Shown here: piece after piece, positions 4,584 to 9,647 of the stretch
Position numbering within the stretch: the first letter of the stretch is position 1
Layout: every line of letters starts with the position of its first letter
From: a virus
Lineage: Duplodnaviria; Caudoviricetes
Virus record (IMG/VR): IMGVR_UViG_3300033120_000761
Coordinates: 1 to 64,000 of that record
Strand: one strand, 5' to 3'
DNA: 64,000 bases
The notes under the pieces: generated by a model
Told to the model about the DNA's origin: nothing
The model's input: only the letters and a program-made list of their open reading frames with translations
The model's database searches: none
Program-made: the position numbers and the translations under genes

Positions 4584-5318
4584 TTAAGATGATTTCAGTT
4601 TCTTTATATAAGCAAGAACCATTGACGTGGCCTTACCTTTTCTTTCAATCATTAGAAGCTTTACAAATTCTGCTTCTGCCATGGTCGCCTTACCGTCTTT
4701 TACTTTCTCGTATGCTTCAACAAAACGAGGATTTTCCATAAGGGCCGTTTCTTTATCTTTAGCCGTTATATAAATTGGCTTCTGATTATGTTCTTTTAGA
4801 GATTTGTCTTCTTTAGATTTTCTATAATTAAAAAATCTATCTTCAGCATTTGCCCCGTGGAGCATAGAGGGTTTAGGGAAAGCCCCATTACCATTATTTG
4901 CAAATTCTAATCCCTTAACCTGAGCTGCCAAAAATTCAGTCGAGGTAGTCTGTAGGCTCAATATCGTTTGATAGGCCTTAACGAAATCAGGAAACTCCTT
5001 AGAAGATTTTGTAATCTTTGAGGCATTAGCAATTCCGTAAAATTTCTTTTTCATCAAAGTATATTCATTCACAAGAACAAGGGCCTTGGCTATTACGGGA
5101 CTCTCAGCATTTTGTTTTAATGTGCTCTCTACTTGGAATTGATCAAAGAACATATCTTTTAAATCTTTAGATCCAGTGTCTACGATCAATTGCTTTAAAG
5201 CTTCTGTTCTGATCGTGAGCAGAGATTTCTTATTATAATAAACAGTCAGCTTATCCGGCTTTTCCTGAATATCTAATAATGCTAAAAATCTTTTTATCTT
5301 AACCGATGCCATTTCCAA
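4584..5318 (-). CDS. Hypothetical protein, 244 aa
   Basis: Long ORF in the replication operon; no family recognised. Confidence 0.7.
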   Translation of the reverse strand: MEMASVKIKRFLALLDIQEKPDKLTVYYNKKSLLTIRTEALKQLIVDTGSKDLKDMFFDQFQVESTLKQNAESPVIAKALVLVNEYTLMKKKFYGIANASKITKSSKEFPDFVKAYQTILSLQTTSTEFLAAQVKGLEFANNGNGAFPKPSMLHGANAEDRFFNYRKSKEDKSLKEHNQKPIYITAKDKETALMENPRFVEAYEKVKDGKATMAEAEFVKLLMIERKGKATSMVLAYIKKLKSS

Positions 5319-5387: not shown

Positions 5388-6539
5388 TTAGTTATCATCA
5401 ATTTCAAAATCATCATCATCATCTAAAAGATCATCGGCATCATCCTCTAGATCTTCTAAATCAACATCAGACAAATCAAATTCTTCCTCTTCCTCTTCTT
5501 TCACAGGAGCTTTCTTTTTTGCCTTAGGCTCTTCTTTTACAGGAGCTTTTTTCTTAGATGGAGTTTTCACAACTTCTACTTCTTCCTCTTCCTCAATCTC
5601 GAAATCGTCTTCGTCAGGTTCAACTACTGGCGCTTTCTTTTTCTTAACTTCTTCTTTGACAGCTTTCTTTGGAGCTTCTTTCACCGGAGCTTTATTTTTC
5701 TTAGTAGGGTTAATTTCTTCCTCTTCCTCAATTTCAAAATCATCTTCGTCTTCAATCTCTTCTTTCACCGGAGCTTTCTTCTTAGCAGTTTCTTTTACAA
5801 GAACTTTCTTAGGTTCTTCTTTTACAGATTTCTTTGGTGGAGTTTTTACTTCTTCAACTTCTTCCGTTTCTTCCTCTTCACCTTCTGCCTCTGCAAGATC
5901 ATCTAATGCTTTATTACAAGCAACTCTTAAATCTTTTAATTTAAGTTTCTTATAACCTTTTGGCATACTAAGAGAATGTTCATCTGCAAGTTCATAGATC
6001 TCTGTTTCAGACATTGCATTAACTTCATCTGCTGAAGGAAGTAATGTCTCTTCAGTTTCTTCAAAGGCATCATCGATCTCTTCCTCAGTACCTTGGAAAG
6101 ATTCTAGTTTCTCAGCAACTTTATTCTTCTTAGGGGTAACGGCCGCTTCAACATCAACAGGGGATTCTTTTACTGTTTTCTTTTTCTTAGGCTCTTCAAC
6201 TAATTTAAGATCTGCCTTTTTTGTTTCTTTAGGTTTATCAGCAACTTTTGTTGGCTTTGATTCTTTCTTCTCAGAAGATGAAGTGCTCATTAGATGCTCA
6301 CCACAGAACGGGCAATCGCCATATTCAAGTAAAATAGGAGAAGCACATGATGGGCATGGAAGGTGAATATCACCGCCGTGCTTAGTGAATACTTCTCTGA
6401 CTTCGTGATATTTCTGAGCATGAGCTTGAATGATTTCTGCTACAGCCAGTAATTGAGCAAATGCACTTTCATCACCTTTCGATAACTCAGAGATCGCTTC
6501 TTCGTGTAATTCTACAAATTTCTTAACATTTTCCAACAT
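5388..6539 (-). CDS. Zn-ribbon protein with long Lys/Glu-rich low-complexity repeats
   Basis: CPSC...CPFC near the N-terminus; repeated KKAPVKE and DDFEIEEEEE blocks; SD-like GGAG upstream. Confidence 0.8.
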   Translation of the reverse strand: MLENVKKFVELHEEAISELSKGDESAFAQLLAVAEIIQAHAQKYHEVREVFTKHGGDIHLPCPSCASPILLEYGDCPFCGEHLMSTSSSEKKESKPTKVADKPKETKKADLKLVEEPKKKKTVKESPVDVEAAVTPKKNKVAEKLESFQGTEEEIDDAFEETEETLLPSADEVNAMSETEIYELADEHSLSMPKGYKKLKLKDLRVACNKALDDLAEAEGEEEETEEVEEVKTPPKKSVKEEPKKVLVKETAKKKAPVKEEIEDEDDFEIEEEEEINPTKKNKAPVKEAPKKAVKEEVKKKKAPVVEPDEDDFEIEEEEEVEVVKTPSKKKAPVKEEPKAKKKAPVKEEEEEEFDLSDVDLEDLEDDADDLLDDDDDFEIDDN

Positions 6540-6540
6540 T

Positions 6541-8094
6541 CTAGTTCTCCTTTTTTCTTATTATTAAGTTGGTATCGACACTTGTTTTAACCCATGTAAC
6601 TACTTCTTTCCCATAATGCTCACGAACTTTATTTGCGGCCTCTCTAGAGTTTTCGTTCTTATCAACGATAACGTCCCAAGTGGGAACAGGCTTCAAATGA
6701 CCGAAGAAAGCTTCTTGTTTCTCTGAATATGTTCTTTCGATTCTTCCTTTAGTTTGGTTGAATCGTTCAATATTATTTCCCTGCGGTGTTGTGATAATCC
6801 CGTGATCAAAAGTTCTTACTGATAATCCAACTTCTGCTTTTTGGGTTGCTACAACATAATCAATATTCTTAGTCTCTGCTAATTCAAGGATTCTCTTATA
6901 GGCAGTATCCTCATCATAGTCTTCAATAATTTCTTTAATACGAGAGGGAGCATTAACGATCTCAGGATCTTTCATGTTGAATTTACCTAAGAGCATATCG
7001 CCTCTAAATTTAGACAACATCTTATAGATAACTGCTGCCTGAACTTTTCTTTCAACAAAAATGATAACTAACTTACCTTCTCTAATTTTTCTAATCGCAC
7101 GTTTGCAGATCAAAATATTACGATCTTTATCTTGGCTGGCACGAGTAATGTAGGCAGAATAATTTTTCTCAAGATCATATTCGATATCGTAGTAATCACT
7201 TTTAACAAGTGAGATCCTAGATAGAATTTTTGATCCTGAATTCTGTTCTTTCGCTATAAACTTCACAGGTCCAAAGGTATCAAAGGTTAAAACCTCTTTT
7301 CCATCTTTACGAGTTAAGTTAGCAGAGGCCGTATAACGAAATCTGGCGCGAAATTTATTAGTAACTGTTTGAACATCTTCGATAGGAGACTTCTGCCCCT
7401 CATCGAAAAAAATTAATCCAACTTTCTCTTTATATACTTCAAGATGCTTTTCATTAGCGAGTGAGTGATAGAGACAAATATTTACCTTTCCTAATCTGGC
7501 CTTAGCTTTAAAAACTCCACCTACTCCACCGATATCAGCTTTCTTCATATTGAATAATTTAGGATCTAAACAAGCTTCTATCCATTGTTCCTGGAGGAAA
7601 GTCGTATGCACGATCACAAGGGCCGGTTGACGCTTTCTTCTGATCATTTCAAGGTATGTTACTGTCTTACCGAATGAGGCATAAGCAACAGCAGAAGCAT
7701 CATCAAATACTTCTACTGCGTCTAATAACTCTTCTTGATCCTCGCGCGGAACGATGTTTGAGTGCTCGAAGGACACCGATGGGAGGACCAGAGTTCTATC
7801 AATGAAATTAGGAATTAATTTAAACTTCTTAAAATGCTTAATCAGTTTTTCTTTACCACCACGAGAGATGCAGAGCTGATTATCCTCATCGATCTCATAA
7901 CTCATTAGATATTTTTTAGTCTTAAAGTTACTTCGGCCGTATTTTTCATTCTCAATATATTTAGGATTCTTATATCTGAATAAGTCTTTGGTCGTCTCAA
8001 GAATTGTTTTACCGTTTTCCAGTTTCAACAATCTTCTTACGCTAATGATCAATGTCGATTCGATTATTACATCGATTGATTGAATCTTTTCCAA
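6541..8094 (-). CDS. Superfamily 2 DNA helicase
   Basis: Walker A-like AYASFGKT, FFDEGQK, TAS motif III, QTKGRIER motif VI; TTG start with GAGAGG 8 nt upstream. Confidence 0.88.
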   Translation of the reverse strand: MEKIQSIDVIIESTLIISVRRLLKLENGKTILETTKDLFRYKNPKYIENEKYGRSNFKTKKYLMSYEIDEDNQLCISRGGKEKLIKHFKKFKLIPNFIDRTLVLPSVSFEHSNIVPREDQEELLDAVEVFDDASAVAYASFGKTVTYLEMIRRKRQPALVIVHTTFLQEQWIEACLDPKLFNMKKADIGGVGGVFKAKARLGKVNICLYHSLANEKHLEVYKEKVGLIFFDEGQKSPIEDVQTVTNKFRARFRYTASANLTRKDGKEVLTFDTFGPVKFIAKEQNSGSKILSRISLVKSDYYDIEYDLEKNYSAYITRASQDKDRNILICKRAIRKIREGKLVIIFVERKVQAAVIYKMLSKFRGDMLLGKFNMKDPEIVNAPSRIKEIIEDYDEDTAYKRILELAETKNIDYVVATQKAEVGLSVRTFDHGIITTPQGNNIERFNQTKGRIERTYSEKQEAFFGHLKPVPTWDVIVDKNENSREAANKVREHYGKEVVTWVKTSVDTNLIIRKKEN

Positions 8095-8169: not shown

Positions 8170-8279
8170 GGATGAAAAAATAAATATTACGAGTCTTCAT
8201 TGTTTCCGAATATTTAATTTGAAACTAGTTTCATGACTCGGAAGTAATAAGTTTGTGACTGAATTTTTTGATCAACTTA

Positions 8280-8351
8280 TGGTGGCCCGTGGATTTTCGA
8301 ATTACCACTTCTGCAATCGATGAGCAGCGTTACCATTTAAACTACCGAGCC
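8280..8351 (-). pseudogene. Degenerate tRNA (anticodon unresolved, possibly UCG)
   Basis: 72 nt with a GGCUCG/CGGGCC acceptor, ACCA end, UGGUA D-loop and UUCGA T-loop, but broken T stem and a non-canonical anticodon loop. Confidence 0.55.
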
Positions 8352-8358
8352 ATAAAAT

Positions 8359-8531
8359 TGGTGGGCTGGAGAAGGAGTCGAACCCTATAGTAAAAGCCAC
8401 TTCATCCGCTACATCTGACATCTATTCTAGCTTCGATGGCAGACTCTATATTTCTCGTCTTGGGAAAGCCTACTCACTGATGATCAATCAATTTTCAAAG
8501 TCCCACGTCTTTACCTATTAGACTACAGCCC
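8359..8531 (-). ncRNA. Expanded 173-nt tRNA-like RNA (Gln-like CUUUGAA loop, large insertions)
   Basis: GGGCUG/CAGCCC acceptor + ACCA, GUCU/AGAC D arm, GGUUCGACUCC T arm; about 95 extra nt between the anticodon loop and the T arm. Confidence 0.75.
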
Positions 8532-8762
8532 ATAATGAGAAATCAGATTAAACTGAGTTTAATTTTATGTCTAGAATTTTCTGAAATCGATCTGATGTAT
8601 GTTTAGACTAGACTTGAGGATCGCGACAATCACTTTAAAGACGGTAACTTGAAAATTATACATACATGGGCGCATTTTGCTAAGATCATGTCTAGACATG
8701 GAAATGTAATCTTCTACTTACATTTTATCAATGAGAGTGGGTTTTGTAAGCGATACCTTACA

Positions 8763-8837
8763 TGGTTAGCCTAGAAGGAATTGAACCTTCGACTTCTTCC
8801 TTATCAGGGAAGTACTCTACCACTGAGTTACAGGCTA
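8763..8837 (-). tRNA. tRNA-Ile(GAU)
   Basis: Full cloverleaf; CUUCC-CUGAUAA-GGAAG anticodon arm; encoded CCA. Confidence 0.95.
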
Positions 8838-8845
8838 ATATGAAA

Positions 8846-8922
8846 TGGTTGCGGAAGAAAGACTTGAACTTTCGACCTAACGCTTATGAGGCGTTCGCTC
8901 TGACCAACTGAGCTATTCCGCA
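8846..8922 (-). tRNA. tRNA with CAU anticodon (Met, or lysidine-modified Ile2)
   Basis: Full cloverleaf; AACGC-CUCAUAA-GCGUU; U1-A72 pair, so not initiator-type; encoded CCA. Confidence 0.92.
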
Positions 8923-8945
8923 AAATGATACGATACGTGTAAAAA

Positions 8946-9022
8946 TGGTTGGCAAGGAAGGACTCGAACCTTCACATACGGGAATCAAAATCCCGGGACT
9001 TAACCAATTTGTCGACCTGCCA
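8946..9022 (-). tRNA. tRNA-Gln(UUG)
   Basis: CGGGA-UUUUGAU-UCCCG anticodon arm; U1-A72; encoded CCA. Confidence 0.92.
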
Positions 9023-9072
9023 AAAACTATAAACGTAATTAAGAAACTCTATAATTAACCTTTTTATCAAAA

Positions 9073-9149
9073 TGGCGGGTAGTAAAGGACTTGAACCTTT
9101 GACCTGTCGCTTAACAAGCGAATGCTCTAACCAACTGAGCTAACCACCC
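9073..9149 (-). tRNA. tRNA-Asn(GUU)
   Basis: Cloverleaf with UUGUUAA loop; GCCA end. Confidence 0.94.
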
Positions 9150-9152
9150 TAA

Positions 9153-9230
9153 TGGCGCGATGTATCGGATTTGAACCGATGACCTCTTCCGTGACAGGGA
9201 AGCGTGAACTCCAGACTTCACCAACACCGC
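9153..9230 (-). tRNA. tRNA-Asp(GUC)
   Basis: CUUCC-CUGUCAC-GGAAG; GCCA end. Confidence 0.94.
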
Positions 9231-9249
9231 ATTAAATTTTAAAGAACAA

Positions 9250-9333
9250 TGGTGCTCGATAAAGGACTCGAACCTTTACACCTTACGGCCTCAGATTCTA
9301 AGTCTGAGTTGTCTACCATTCCAGCAATCGAGC
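9250..9333 (-). tRNA. tRNA-Leu(UAG)
   Basis: UCAGA-CUUAGAA-UCUGA; long variable arm; ACCA end. Confidence 0.94.
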
Positions 9334-9355
9334 AAAATTTTAAAGATCATAAAAA

Positions 9356-9431
9356 TGGTCAGAGCGGTGGGGATCGAACCCACGACCTCAAGAATCCAAG
9401 TCTTGCCATCTACCGCTGATTTTACGCCCTG
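9356..9431 (-). tRNA. tRNA-Pro(UGG)
   Basis: CAAGA-CUUGGAU-UCUUG; C1-G72; ACCA end. Confidence 0.93.
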
Positions 9432-9533
9432 ACAAAAAACGTTACGAAAATCCAGTAACACTTAGTAACGTTACGAGATTTCATAACAACTGCTAACATC
9501 GTACCTTTTTACTCCACTAGTTCTATCTAGTGG

Positions 9534-9610
9534 TGGTGGAATCGACAGGACTTGAACCTGCAACCCTCTGCGTGCAAGGCAGATGCTCTACCAATTGTAG
9601 CTACGACCCC
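9534..9610 (-). tRNA. tRNA-Ala(UGC)
   Basis: UCUGC-CUUGCAC-GCAGA; G3-U70 Ala identity pair; ACCA end. Confidence 0.96.
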
Positions 9611-9617
9611 ATAAACG

Positions 9618-9647
9618 AAAAAAGCCCGGGAGATTAATCCTGGGCTT
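9618..9647 (-). terminator. Intrinsic terminator (attenuator) 7 nt upstream of the first tRNA
   Basis: AAGCCC-A-GGA/UUAAUC/UCC-C-GGGCUU hairpin ending in a U6 tract on the minus strand. Confidence 0.85.

What the first reader, a model, noticed from the sequence alone, without database searches (positions are those of the whole stretch)
8359..8531. 173-nt tRNA-shaped RNA with large structured insertions inside the tRNA array
Seen in sequence: it keeps a tRNA frame (GGGCUG/CAGCCC acceptor, ACCA end, GUCU/AGAC D arm, UGGGA-CUUUGAA Gln-like anticodon 5' side, GGUUCGACUCC T arm). The partner strand UCCCA appears only after a 28-nt insert, followed by about 65 nt containing further helices (AGAC/GUCU, GCCA/UGGC, GCUA/UAGC, UAUAG/CUAUA). 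It has a D arm and G3-C70, unlike tmRNA, and is too short for a group I or II intron. Inference: a tRNA-derived structured RNA co-expressed under the attenuator, possibly a decoy for tRNA-targeting toxins or synthetases, a ribosome-binding RNA, or a tRNA with an unusual removable insert. A normal tRNA-Gln(UUG) is already present, so it is not needed for decoding.
Basis: partly seen in the sequence, partly recalled or inferred. Interest (0 to 1): 0.72.

Follow-up and report, generated by a model that had tools for sequence, protein, structure and literature searches.

The report
Disrupted tRNA-Gln copy in phage array
This uncultured phage carries a second glutamine-tRNA gene, just downstream of its tRNA cluster and ahead of its replication genes, that keeps every tRNA stem but has two insertions making it unable to read codons; it looks like a one-off disabled copy, not a new conserved RNA.

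Summary
The 173-nt element (window 8359-8531, minus strand) is real and derived from tRNA-Gln(UUG). All stems are perfect Watson-Crick pairs. Rfam's tRNA model aligns it end to end at 21.8 bits, below the 29-bit threshold. Cutting out two segments in silico (28 nt after anticodon-loop position 38, 67 nt inside the T stem) makes ARAGORN call a normal tRNA-Gln(UUG).

The claim of "structured insertions" is not supported. The inserts fold no better than shuffled sequence (z +0.2 to +1.1) and have background base composition. They do not pair with each other, are not repeated in the genome and match no Rfam family.

I found no homologue. GenBank phages, IMG/VR pattern scans and one pattern scan of GTDB species-representative genomes gave nothing. 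Nor did the syntenic loci of relatives, including the two relatives that have tRNA arrays at this site.

Most likely it is a young, disabled duplicate of tRNA-Gln that may still be end-processed (about 0.5). The main rival is a working non-decoding tRNA-like RNA of the kind annotated in T4 (RNAC/RNAD) and T5 (RNA1/RNA2), about 0.3. Splicing, tmRNA and Y RNA readings find no support.

This scan has noted oversized tRNA-like RNAs in other phages before; none resembles this one in sequence. Interest is low to moderate.

The parts
8359..8531 (-). Whole 173-nt tRNA-Gln-derived element (el173). Element position p equals window 8532 minus p.
8532..8532 (-). U immediately 5' of the element. It is base 1 in standard tRNA numbering and pairs with A at 8362.
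   Evidence: Infernal alignment register. Alignment to the phage's own tRNA-Gln, which starts UGG. ARAGORN on trimmed variants starts here.
8526..8531 (-). Acceptor stem 5' strand GGGCUG.
   Evidence: Six of six Watson-Crick pairs with 8363-8368.
8507..8523 (-). D arm: GUCU, loop AAUAGGUAA (A14, G18, G19, A21 present), AGAC.
8494..8505 (-). Anticodon stem 5' strand UGGGA plus loop CUUUGAA (U33, anticodon UUG, A37).
8466..8493 (-). Insert 1: 28 nt between loop position 38 and the 3' stem strand. It begins with UUGA repeats that continue the anticodon (UUUGA-AAA-UUGA-UUGA-UCA-UCA).
   Evidence: Sequence. z +0.19 for the 35-nt loop. 36% G+C. No other copy in the genome.
8457..8465 (-). Anticodon stem 3' strand UCCCA plus 4-nt variable loop AGAC.
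8452..8456 (-). GAGAA, the 5' strand of the T-side helix. It pairs with UUCUC at 8369-8373.
   Evidence: Infernal T stem. MFE fold. Five of five Watson-Crick pairs.
8385..8451 (-). Insert 2: 67 nt branching from the T-side helix. Its ends can pair (UAUAG/CUAUA).
   Evidence: z +0.30. 40% G+C. No Rfam match. No second copy.
8369..8384 (-). GG, T loop UUCGACU, CC, UUCUC. GAA|GG / CCUUC is the same T stem as in the phage's own tRNA-Gln.
8359..8368 (-). Acceptor 3' strand CAGCCC followed by ACCA.
8280..8352 (-). el2: a second, degenerate tRNA-like element 6-7 nt downstream. It has a mismatched T stem, a 3-bp D stem, A33, an Arg-like UCG and the same U...A-CCA end.
   Evidence: Found only by ARAGORN's mitochondrial mode. 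No Rfam tRNA hit at E up to 10. z -0.04.
8532..8762 (-). 231-nt spacer between tRNA-Ile and el173. It holds a promoter-like site at 8683-8655, a perfect palindrome ATGTCTAGACAT at 8688-8699, and the motif GTCTAGTCTAAACATAC at 8597-8613, which is shared with relative L002.
8763..9610 (-). Array of eight canonical tRNAs (Ala, Pro, Leu, Asp, Asn, Gln, Met, Ile). All encode a discriminator base plus CCA.
8946..9022 (-). Intact tRNA-Gln(UUG), the closest relative of the el173 core among 20 tRNAs compared.
6541..8094 (-). SF2 helicase, first gene of the replication module downstream (followed by primase-helicase and UDG-PolA).

Best explanation
el173 is a paralogue of the phage's tRNA-Gln(UUG) gene that two insertions have disabled as a decoder. 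One insertion adds 28 nt at the 3' edge of the anticodon loop, giving a 35-nt loop. The other adds 67 nt inside the 5' strand of the T stem. The acceptor helix, D arm, T loop and CCA end are intact. The transcript is therefore probably still recognised as tRNA-like, cut by RNase P and trimmed at its 3' end. That would separate upstream RNA from the helicase-primase-polymerase message (inferred). It cannot present a 7-nt anticodon loop to the ribosome, and I see no way for the inserts to be removed. It is most likely a young, lineage-specific pseudo-tRNA produced by the fast turnover of this phage group's tRNA array.

Shown here: the tRNA-Gln ancestry, the positions of the inserts, and the lack of structure signal and of homologues. 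Inferred: transcription, end-processing and the absence of function.
For: tRNA-Gln ancestry.
- Infernal aligns it to the tRNA model.
- ARAGORN calls tRNA-Gln(UUG) only when both inserts are deleted in silico.
- Its core is closest to the Gln tRNAs of this phage and of L003 among 20 tRNAs compared; L002's Gln ranked fourth.

Redundancy.
- An intact tRNA-Gln(UUG) lies at 8946-9022.

Inserts look like filler.
- z +0.2 to +1.1 against shuffles.
- 36-40% G+C, against 51% in the core and 36% in the genome.
- The inserts do not pair with each other: 86 of 500 shuffles do as well.
- No Rfam family matches.
- Insert 1 starts with UUGA repeats that look like replication slippage.

Contrast with controls.
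- The eight neighbouring tRNAs have z -0.8 to -2.2.
- T4 rnaC has z -4.6; T5 RNA1, RNA2, RNA3 and RNA2H have z -1.8, -1.2, -3.0 and -3.0.

No conservation.
- Absent from the syntenic region of the nearest relatives with arrays, L002 (helicase 70% identical) and L003 (63%).
- Four IMG/VR relatives have no tRNA at all.
- Array content differs between relatives.
- L002 carries a stranded tRNA 5' fragment.

Neighbour.
- el2 next door is a visibly decayed tRNA-like element.

Ends.
- The 3' end is non-canonical, unlike all eight real tRNAs.
Against: - All 20-21 base pairs of the four stems are perfect Watson-Crick, with no G-U pair.
- The tertiary-contact bases (U8, A14, G18, G19, A21, U33, T loop) and the CCA end are kept.
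- Two separate large insertions with no point damage is odd for neutral decay, unless both arose in one recent event.
- The ends of insert 2 pair to close a neat branch (UAUAG/CUAUA).
- Phage genomes usually delete junk.
- Expanded tRNA-like RNAs are annotated as stable RNAs in T5, and are present in T4. T5 RNA1 gives the same kind of sub-threshold Rfam tRNA hit (24.0 bits).
- My homologue searches were exact-pattern or BLAST-level only. Diverged family members could have been missed.
Confidence: 0.5

Rival explanations
1. A working, non-decoding tRNA-like stable RNA of the T4 RNAC/RNAD and T5 RNA1/RNA2 kind. The tRNA frame secures processing and stability. The expanded loops carry the function, for example as a mimic or decoy for an enzyme or defence nuclease that recognises tRNA-Gln, or as a processing signal ahead of the replication operon.
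For: - Same genomic setting as T4 rnaD/rnaC: same strand, at the distal end of the tRNA cluster. Also the same setting as the T5 RNAs annotated 'tRNA-like stable RNA with unknown functions'.
- T5 RNA1 also keeps a tRNA body with an expanded anticodon region (my reading). It scores 24.0 bits on Rfam tRNA, much like el173's 21.8.
- Stems and tertiary bases are perfect.
- The ends of insert 2 pair.
Against: - No homologue anywhere, and absent from the nearest relatives.
- The inserts show no stability or composition signal, unlike most of the T4 and T5 RNAs.
- No sequence similarity to the T4 or T5 RNAs.
- No candidate partner protein was identified.
Confidence: 0.3
2. A true tRNA-Gln precursor whose two inserts are removed after transcription, by intron-like or cut-and-rejoin processing, to give a second functional tRNA-Gln.
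For: - Deleting exactly the two inserts restores a tRNA-Gln that ARAGORN accepts.
- The MFE fold places 3-nt unpaired stretches on either side of a 4-bp helix in the expanded anticodon loop, a loose echo of the archaeal bulge-helix-bulge motif.
I did not test this.
Against: - Any insertion is 'clean' when removed, so the restoration proves nothing.
- It is not a strict bulge-helix-bulge: both 'bulges' face unpaired bases, and the central helix is three G-U pairs plus one A-U.
- 28 and 67 nt are far below group I or II intron size, and there are no Rfam intron or ribozyme hits.
- No splicing endonuclease, RtcB or CCA-adding enzyme is found in the 86.5-kb record, which is 73% complete.
- The nearest cultured relatives all infect bacteria.
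- After removal the T stem would be 7 bp and the discriminator base would be missing.
Confidence: 0.05
3. Not an RNA gene in its own right. The tRNA-like DNA is incidental debris inside a long regulatory or origin region upstream of the replication genes, and its transcript has no defined ends.
For: - Relatives keep 130-850 nt of non-coding DNA at this position whether or not they have tRNAs.
- Operator-like motifs and a promoter-like site lie just upstream.
Against: - The intact acceptor and T-loop module plus CCA is exactly what RNase P and 3' trimming enzymes recognise.
- Same strand and spacing as the tRNA array.
- No terminator separates it from upstream transcription.
Confidence: 0.1

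Closest known systems
Phage T5 RNA1 and RNA2 ('tRNA-like stable RNA with unknown functions', AY543070), with RNA3 and RNA2H
   Same: - Encoded on the tRNA strand inside a phage tRNA cluster.
- RNA1 keeps the acceptor, D arm and T arm (GAAGG/CCUUC) of a tRNA with an enlarged anticodon region (my reading).
- RNA1 gives a full-length but sub-threshold Rfam tRNA hit of 24.0 bits, against 21.8 for el173.
- Function unknown.
   Different: - No sequence similarity.
- The T5 RNAs fold better than shuffles (z -1.2 to -3.0); el173 does not (+0.32).
- The T5 RNAs are annotated as stable RNAs; el173 expression is unknown.
- el173 has a second insert inside the T stem.
Phage T4 species 1 and species 2 RNAs (rnaC 139 nt, rnaD 119 nt)
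   Same: - They lie at the distal end of the tRNA cluster on the same strand, as two adjacent non-tRNA genes, like el173 plus el2.
- rnaC ends in a T arm plus an acceptor-like helix.
- Their roles are still unknown (PMC3014915).
   Different: - rnaC has no recognisable D arm or anticodon arm and is strongly structured (z -4.6).
- el173 keeps the whole cloverleaf and its extra sequence is unstructured.
- No homology.
Phage pseudo-tRNAs (for example the T5 tRNA-Gln2 gene flagged as a pseudogene in AY543070)
   Same: - A redundant second Gln gene in a phage tRNA cluster that is no longer a standard tRNA.
- tRNA clusters of related phages differ in content, and a stranded tRNA fragment occurs in L002.
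   Different: el173 is disabled by two large insertions while every stem stays perfect, not by truncation or point decay.
Archaeal multi-intron pre-tRNAs (bulge-helix-bulge introns at position 37/38 and in the T arm)
   Same: Short inserts at the anticodon loop and in the T-arm region of an otherwise complete tRNA.
   Different: - No strict bulge-helix-bulge motif.
- No splicing endonuclease.
- The phage context is bacterial.
tmRNA tRNA-like domain
   Same: The 5' GGGCUG, the 3' GGUUCGACUCC and the CAGCCCACCA end look similar, and the element is oversized.
   Different: - It has a full D arm and anticodon arm, and G-C rather than G-U at position 3:70.
- It is only 173 nt long.
- No tag reading frame or pseudoknots.
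- ARAGORN's tmRNA search and Rfam are both negative.

Membership tests
Canonical tRNA (Rfam RF00005) | Score at or above the family gathering threshold (29 bits) | tested here: not met
   21.8 bits. ARAGORN at default settings finds nothing.
Canonical tRNA (Rfam RF00005) | Four cloverleaf stems plus conserved U8, A14, G18, G19, U33 and the T loop | tested here: met
   All pairs are Watson-Crick.
Canonical tRNA (Rfam RF00005) | 7-nt anticodon loop and a 5-bp T stem closed by a 7-nt loop | tested here: not met
   The anticodon loop is 35 nt. The T-side helix is 7 bp and is split by a 67-nt branch.
Canonical tRNA (Rfam RF00005) | 7-bp acceptor stem, then a discriminator base, then CCA | tested here: inconclusive
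   Either 6 bp plus A plus CCA, or 7 bp (U8532-A8362) plus CCA with no discriminator. All eight real tRNAs in the array are canonical.
tmRNA | G3-U70 pair, tag reading frame, pseudoknots, about 260-400 nt | tested here: not met
   G-C at position 3:70. ARAGORN's tmRNA mode and Rfam are negative. Length is 173 nt.
tRNA with a group I or group II intron | Intron with a ribozyme core (P1-P9, or domains I-VI) of roughly 200 nt or more | tested here: not met
   The inserts are 28 and 67 nt. No Rfam intron or ribozyme match at E up to 10.
Archaeal-type spliced pre-tRNA | Bulge-helix-bulge motif at both exon-intron junctions | tested here: not met
   The MFE fold gives internal loops (1x3 and 3x3) around a weak 4-bp helix at insert 1, and nothing comparable at insert 2.
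Archaeal-type spliced pre-tRNA | Splicing endonuclease and ligase available | tested here: not met
   No PF01974 or PF01139 match in the 86.5-kb record. The host's enzymes cannot be tested. The nearest cultured phages infect bacteria.
Phage tRNA-cluster stable RNAs (T4 RNAC/RNAD, T5 RNA1/RNA2) | Encoded within or at the end of a phage tRNA cluster, on the same strand | tested here: met
Phage tRNA-cluster stable RNAs (T4 RNAC/RNAD, T5 RNA1/RNA2) | tRNA-like acceptor and T-arm module at the ends | tested here: met
Phage tRNA-cluster stable RNAs (T4 RNAC/RNAD, T5 RNA1/RNA2) | Accumulates as a discrete stable RNA during infection | not testable with these tools
Phage tRNA-cluster stable RNAs (T4 RNAC/RNAD, T5 RNA1/RNA2) | Sequence or structure homology to a described member, or conservation among related phages | tested here: not met
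   No BLAST, nhmmer or pattern hits. Absent from L002 and L003.
YrlA / bacterial Y RNA | Match to the Rfam Y RNA-like models, with a Ro-binding helix formed by the 5' and 3' ends | tested here: not met
   No Rfam hit at E up to 10. The ends form an acceptor stem with CCA.

The most novel reading that the evidence does not exclude
el173 is a selected, functional mimic of tRNA-Gln. Its intact tRNA body would get it processed and recognised, for example by GlnRS, EF-Tu or a tRNA-Gln-directed defence nuclease. The 35-nt anticodon loop, with its repeated UUGA motif, and the branch on the T stem would act as bait or as a regulatory surface. Under this reading it would be the founding member of an unsampled family of phage tRNA decoys. 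An even rarer variant is that both inserts are removed by an unknown bacterial or phage cut-and-rejoin pathway.
Probability: 0.12. Interest if true: 0.7.

Novelty: new member of a known kind. Interest (0 to 1): 0.28.

Why it matters
If it is only a disabled duplicate, it is a snapshot of how quickly phage tRNA clusters gain, break and lose genes. It also shows how oversized tRNA-like genes might begin: loop insertions into an intact tRNA frame. If it turned out to be functional, it would add a Gln-type member to the still unexplained class of phage tRNA-like stable RNAs known from T4 and T5. It would also be a concrete candidate for a tRNA decoy against tRNA-targeting defences. The present evidence does not favour that reading.

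Tried and rejected
Homologue searches, all negative.
- blastn (word 11) of 8250-8780 and of the 5' half against 50,697 GenBank phage records.
- Five IMG/VR pattern scans: a 27-mer, a 30-mer, a pattern for both ends, a pattern for the split T stem and a pattern for the expanded anticodon arm. The four hits are ordinary tRNAs or unrelated elements.
- One scan of genome contigs for an uninterrupted parent tRNA. The single hit lies outside any ARAGORN-called tRNA, reads like coding sequence to my eye, and is taken as chance.
- blastn-short and nhmmer against the syntenic loci of relatives fetched up to that point, L002-L008.
- Rfam at permissive E-values on those loci and on L011-L013.
- The metagenome scan with the helicase alignment returned mostly distant helicases and only four true relatives. 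ARAGORN found no tRNA in three of these (L015-L017); the fourth, L014, is the same contig as L005/L010, which has none.
- The contig cluster holding the identical helicase is withheld.

Other tests.
- tmRNA reading: rejected.
- Ribozymes, introns and Y RNA: no Rfam match.
- Mobile-element origin of the inserts: no second copy in the 86.5-kb genome.
- Kissing or pairing between the inserts: not above shuffles.
- ARAGORN at 70% threshold with introns allowed forces a tRNA-Ser(UGA) with an 80-nt intron. I reject this as an artefact of the relaxed settings.
- A 41-codon frame runs from insert 2 into el2, by my own reading of the sequence. It has no ribosome-binding site and I did not pursue it.

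Full report
**Setting**

The window is part of an 86.5-kb IMG/VR virus record that CheckV rates about 73% complete. On the minus strand, ARAGORN and Rfam both find eight canonical tRNAs between 9610 and 8763: Ala, Pro, Leu, Asp, Asn, Gln(UUG), Met and Ile. A 231-nt spacer follows, then the element under study (8531 to 8359). Six or seven bases further on comes a second odd tRNA-like element (8352 to 8280). About 185 nt downstream, the replication module begins: SF2 helicase, primase-helicase and a UDG-PolA fusion. The nearest cultured phages are at most 30% identical in the primase-helicase, and all infect bacteria.

**The observation**

Read on the minus strand, the element has these parts, in order:
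- GGGCUG, then UA.
- A D arm: GUCU-AAUAGGUAA-AGAC, then G.
- UGGGA, then CUUUGAA.
- 28 extra nt, then UCCCA.
- AGAC, then GAGAA.
- 67 extra nt.
- GG-UUCGACU-CC, then UUCUC.
- CAGCCC, then ACCA.

Three lines of evidence show the tRNA frame is real:
- Rfam's tRNA model aligns positions 3-68 at 21.8 bits, below the 29-bit threshold. It places one 30-nt insertion in the anticodon loop and one 76-nt insertion in the T loop. The E-value of 0.059 covers 4227 families, so for the tRNA family alone it is about 1e-5.
- The unconstrained MFE fold recovers the acceptor, D and anticodon stems and the GAGAA/UUCUC helix.
- Every one of the 20-22 pairs is Watson-Crick.

Deleting either insert alone in silico gives nothing. 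Deleting both makes ARAGORN call tRNA-Gln(UUG) at default settings. Among 20 tRNAs from this phage and its two array-bearing relatives, the core is most similar to the Gln tRNAs of this phage and of L003; L002's Gln ranked fourth. It shares the GAAGG/CCUUC T stem of the phage's own tRNA-Gln. The tRNA frame and its Gln ancestry are therefore confirmed.

**Two refinements**

- The second insert splits the 5' strand of a 7-bp helix (GAGAA|GG over CCUUCUC) that carries a normal T loop. An alternative 4-bp AGGG/CCUU T arm competes with that helix and is 2.9 kcal/mol worse.
- Standard numbering (U8, A9, G10...) and homology to tRNA-Gln both need the upstream U at 8532 as base 1, paired with A at 8362. 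CCA then follows with no discriminator base. Otherwise the acceptor stem is only 6 bp. All eight real tRNAs in the array have a normal discriminator plus CCA.

**Are the insertions structured?**

- Insert 2 alone has z +0.30, or +0.50 with its left flank. The 35-nt anticodon loop has z +0.19, the whole T-side domain +1.10 and the whole element +0.32.
- The eight neighbouring tRNAs give z -0.8 to -2.2.
- The stable RNAs annotated in the T4 and T5 tRNA clusters give -4.6 (rnaC), -0.8 (rnaD), -1.8 (RNA1), -1.2 (RNA2), -3.0 (RNA3) and -3.0 (RNA2H).
- The inserts have the genome's background G+C (36-40% against 51% in the core).
- They do not pair with each other beyond shuffles.
- They occur nowhere else in the genome.
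- They hit no Rfam family even at E up to 10.
- Insert 1 opens with UUGA repeats that continue the anticodon, which looks like replication slippage.

The one hint of design is that the ends of insert 2 are complementary (UAUAG/CUAUA) and so close the branch.

**Relatives**

The helicase has about 54 relatives in metagenomes. I fetched the syntenic region from seven of them, plus four IMG/VR records and a few metagenome contigs.
- Only the two closest, L002 (70% identical) and L003 (63%), have tRNA arrays at this site. Their tRNA sets differ from this window's and from each other.
- The four IMG/VR relatives have no tRNA anywhere in their records.
- None of the loci contains a look-alike of el173 or el2 by blastn-short or nhmmer. 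None has a sub-threshold tRNA-like hit with large insertions.
- Aligning the spacer regions of the window and L002 shows conserved operator-like motifs and the ribosome-binding region. It shows nothing homologous to el173 or el2.
- L002 carries a stranded 5' fragment of a tRNA just before its tRNA-Ile.
- Wider searches of GenBank phages, IMG/VR patterns and GTDB species-representative genomes found nothing.

As far as these tools can see, the element is a singleton in a fast-changing array.

**What it is**

The evidence fits a duplicated tRNA-Gln gene that has taken two insertions and can no longer decode. It still has the acceptor and T-loop module and the CCA end that the processing enzymes recognise. 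No terminator lies between it and upstream transcription. A sigma-70-like site (TTAGCA-17-TATAAT, 8683-8655) sits in the spacer, although promoter-like sites in this region are not more frequent than in shuffles. The element is therefore probably transcribed in the leader of the replication operon. Whether it is then excised like a tRNA is inference.

I put about 0.5 on a young pseudo-tRNA with no function of its own. I put about 0.3 on a functional non-decoding tRNA-like RNA.
- The main argument for function is that two large insertions coexist with flawless stems and tertiary bases.
- The counter-argument is that a pseudogene visible in a phage genome must be recent, and that both inserts could come from one complex repair or slippage event.
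- The neighbouring el2 is plainly degenerate: a mismatched T stem, a 3-bp D stem and A33. That makes this end of the array look like a place where tRNA genes decay.

**Other readings**

- Splicing: the inserts are far too short for group I or II introns. The anticodon-loop fold is not a strict bulge-helix-bulge. The record encodes no splicing endonuclease, RtcB or CCA-adding enzyme.
- tmRNA: excluded by the full cloverleaf, G-C at position 3:70, the length, and negative ARAGORN and Rfam searches.
- Y RNA: no Rfam match.

**Comparison with known systems**

- T4 places two stable RNAs of unknown role, rnaD and rnaC, at the distal end of its tRNA cluster (PMC3014915).
- The T5 record annotates RNA1 and RNA2 as 'tRNA-like stable RNA with unknown functions', along with RNA3, RNA2H and others in the same cluster.
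- T5 RNA1 keeps a tRNA body with an enlarged anticodon region (my reading) and scores 24.0 bits on Rfam tRNA, much like el173.
- el173 works like these in position and outline. It fails the tests of homology, conservation and excess structure, so I do not file it as a member of any described family.
- T5 also carries a second tRNA-Gln that is flagged as a pseudogene.

Earlier notes of this scan report oversized tRNA-like RNAs in other phages' arrays. None shares sequence words with el173, and I used them only as leads.

**Verdict**

The 'structured insertion' part and the functional readings are not supported. The most likely reading is a lineage-specific, disabled tRNA-Gln copy, and interest is low to moderate.

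Noticed in passing
window 8280-8352 (minus strand): A second tRNA-like element (el2) lies 6-7 nt downstream of el173. It has acceptor (U)GGCUCG/CGGGCC(A) followed by CCA, a 3-bp D stem, anticodon loop CAUCGAU (UCG, with A33) and a T stem with mismatches around UUCGAAA. Only ARAGORN's mitochondrial mode finds it, and z is -0.04. It shares el173's odd end, U...A directly followed by CCA.
   Followed up: partly
window 8532-8762 (minus strand): The spacer holds a perfect 12-bp palindrome ATGTCTAGACAT (8688-8699), further TCTAGAC-like repeats and the motif GTCTAGTCTAAACATAC (8597-8613). That motif is conserved almost exactly in relative L002 (around 5528-5546). These are likely operator or promoter elements for the replication operon. 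A sigma-70-like site lies at 8683-8655.
   Followed up: partly
window 9618-9647: The G+C-rich hairpin upstream of tRNA-Ala was flagged on the plus strand. On the minus strand it is followed by a cleaner T run (TTTTTTCG), so it could terminate transcription in both directions just ahead of the tRNA array.
   Followed up: no
L002 4284-4360: The closest relative's array starts with a tRNA that ARAGORN reads with an 8-nt anticodon loop (four-base anticodon UUCA; Rfam tRNA 43.7 bits). It is a possible opal or frameshift suppressor.
   Followed up: no
L002 about 5210-5242: A stranded tRNA 5' fragment (acceptor strand plus D arm, running into GGUUCGAUA) lies directly before tRNA-Ile. It is debris that shows recombination within these arrays.
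   Followed up: no
L097 about 1027-1100 and L099 about 480-535 (unrelated IMG/VR phages): In L097 a roughly 70-nt element with acceptor GGUCCGG/UCGGAUC, a GAAGG/CCUUC T arm and ACCA, but no normal D or anticodon arm, sits in a tRNA array and is not called by ARAGORN. In L099 an acceptor plus T-arm minihelix lies downstream of a tRNA-Ser. Neither is homologous to el173.
   Followed up: no
Proteins P0023, P0029, P0030, P0047; L002 12007-13557: Several relatives carry inteins (Hint and LAGLIDADG domains) inside the helicase and the PolA gene, by the precomputed Pfam hits. The window's copies of these genes show no such domains.
   Followed up: no
L094 4513-4643 (phage T5 RNA1): T5's annotated 'tRNA-like stable RNA' RNA1 gives a full-length Rfam tRNA alignment at 24.0 bits, below threshold. 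It is a useful yardstick for how such RNAs score.
   Followed up: yes
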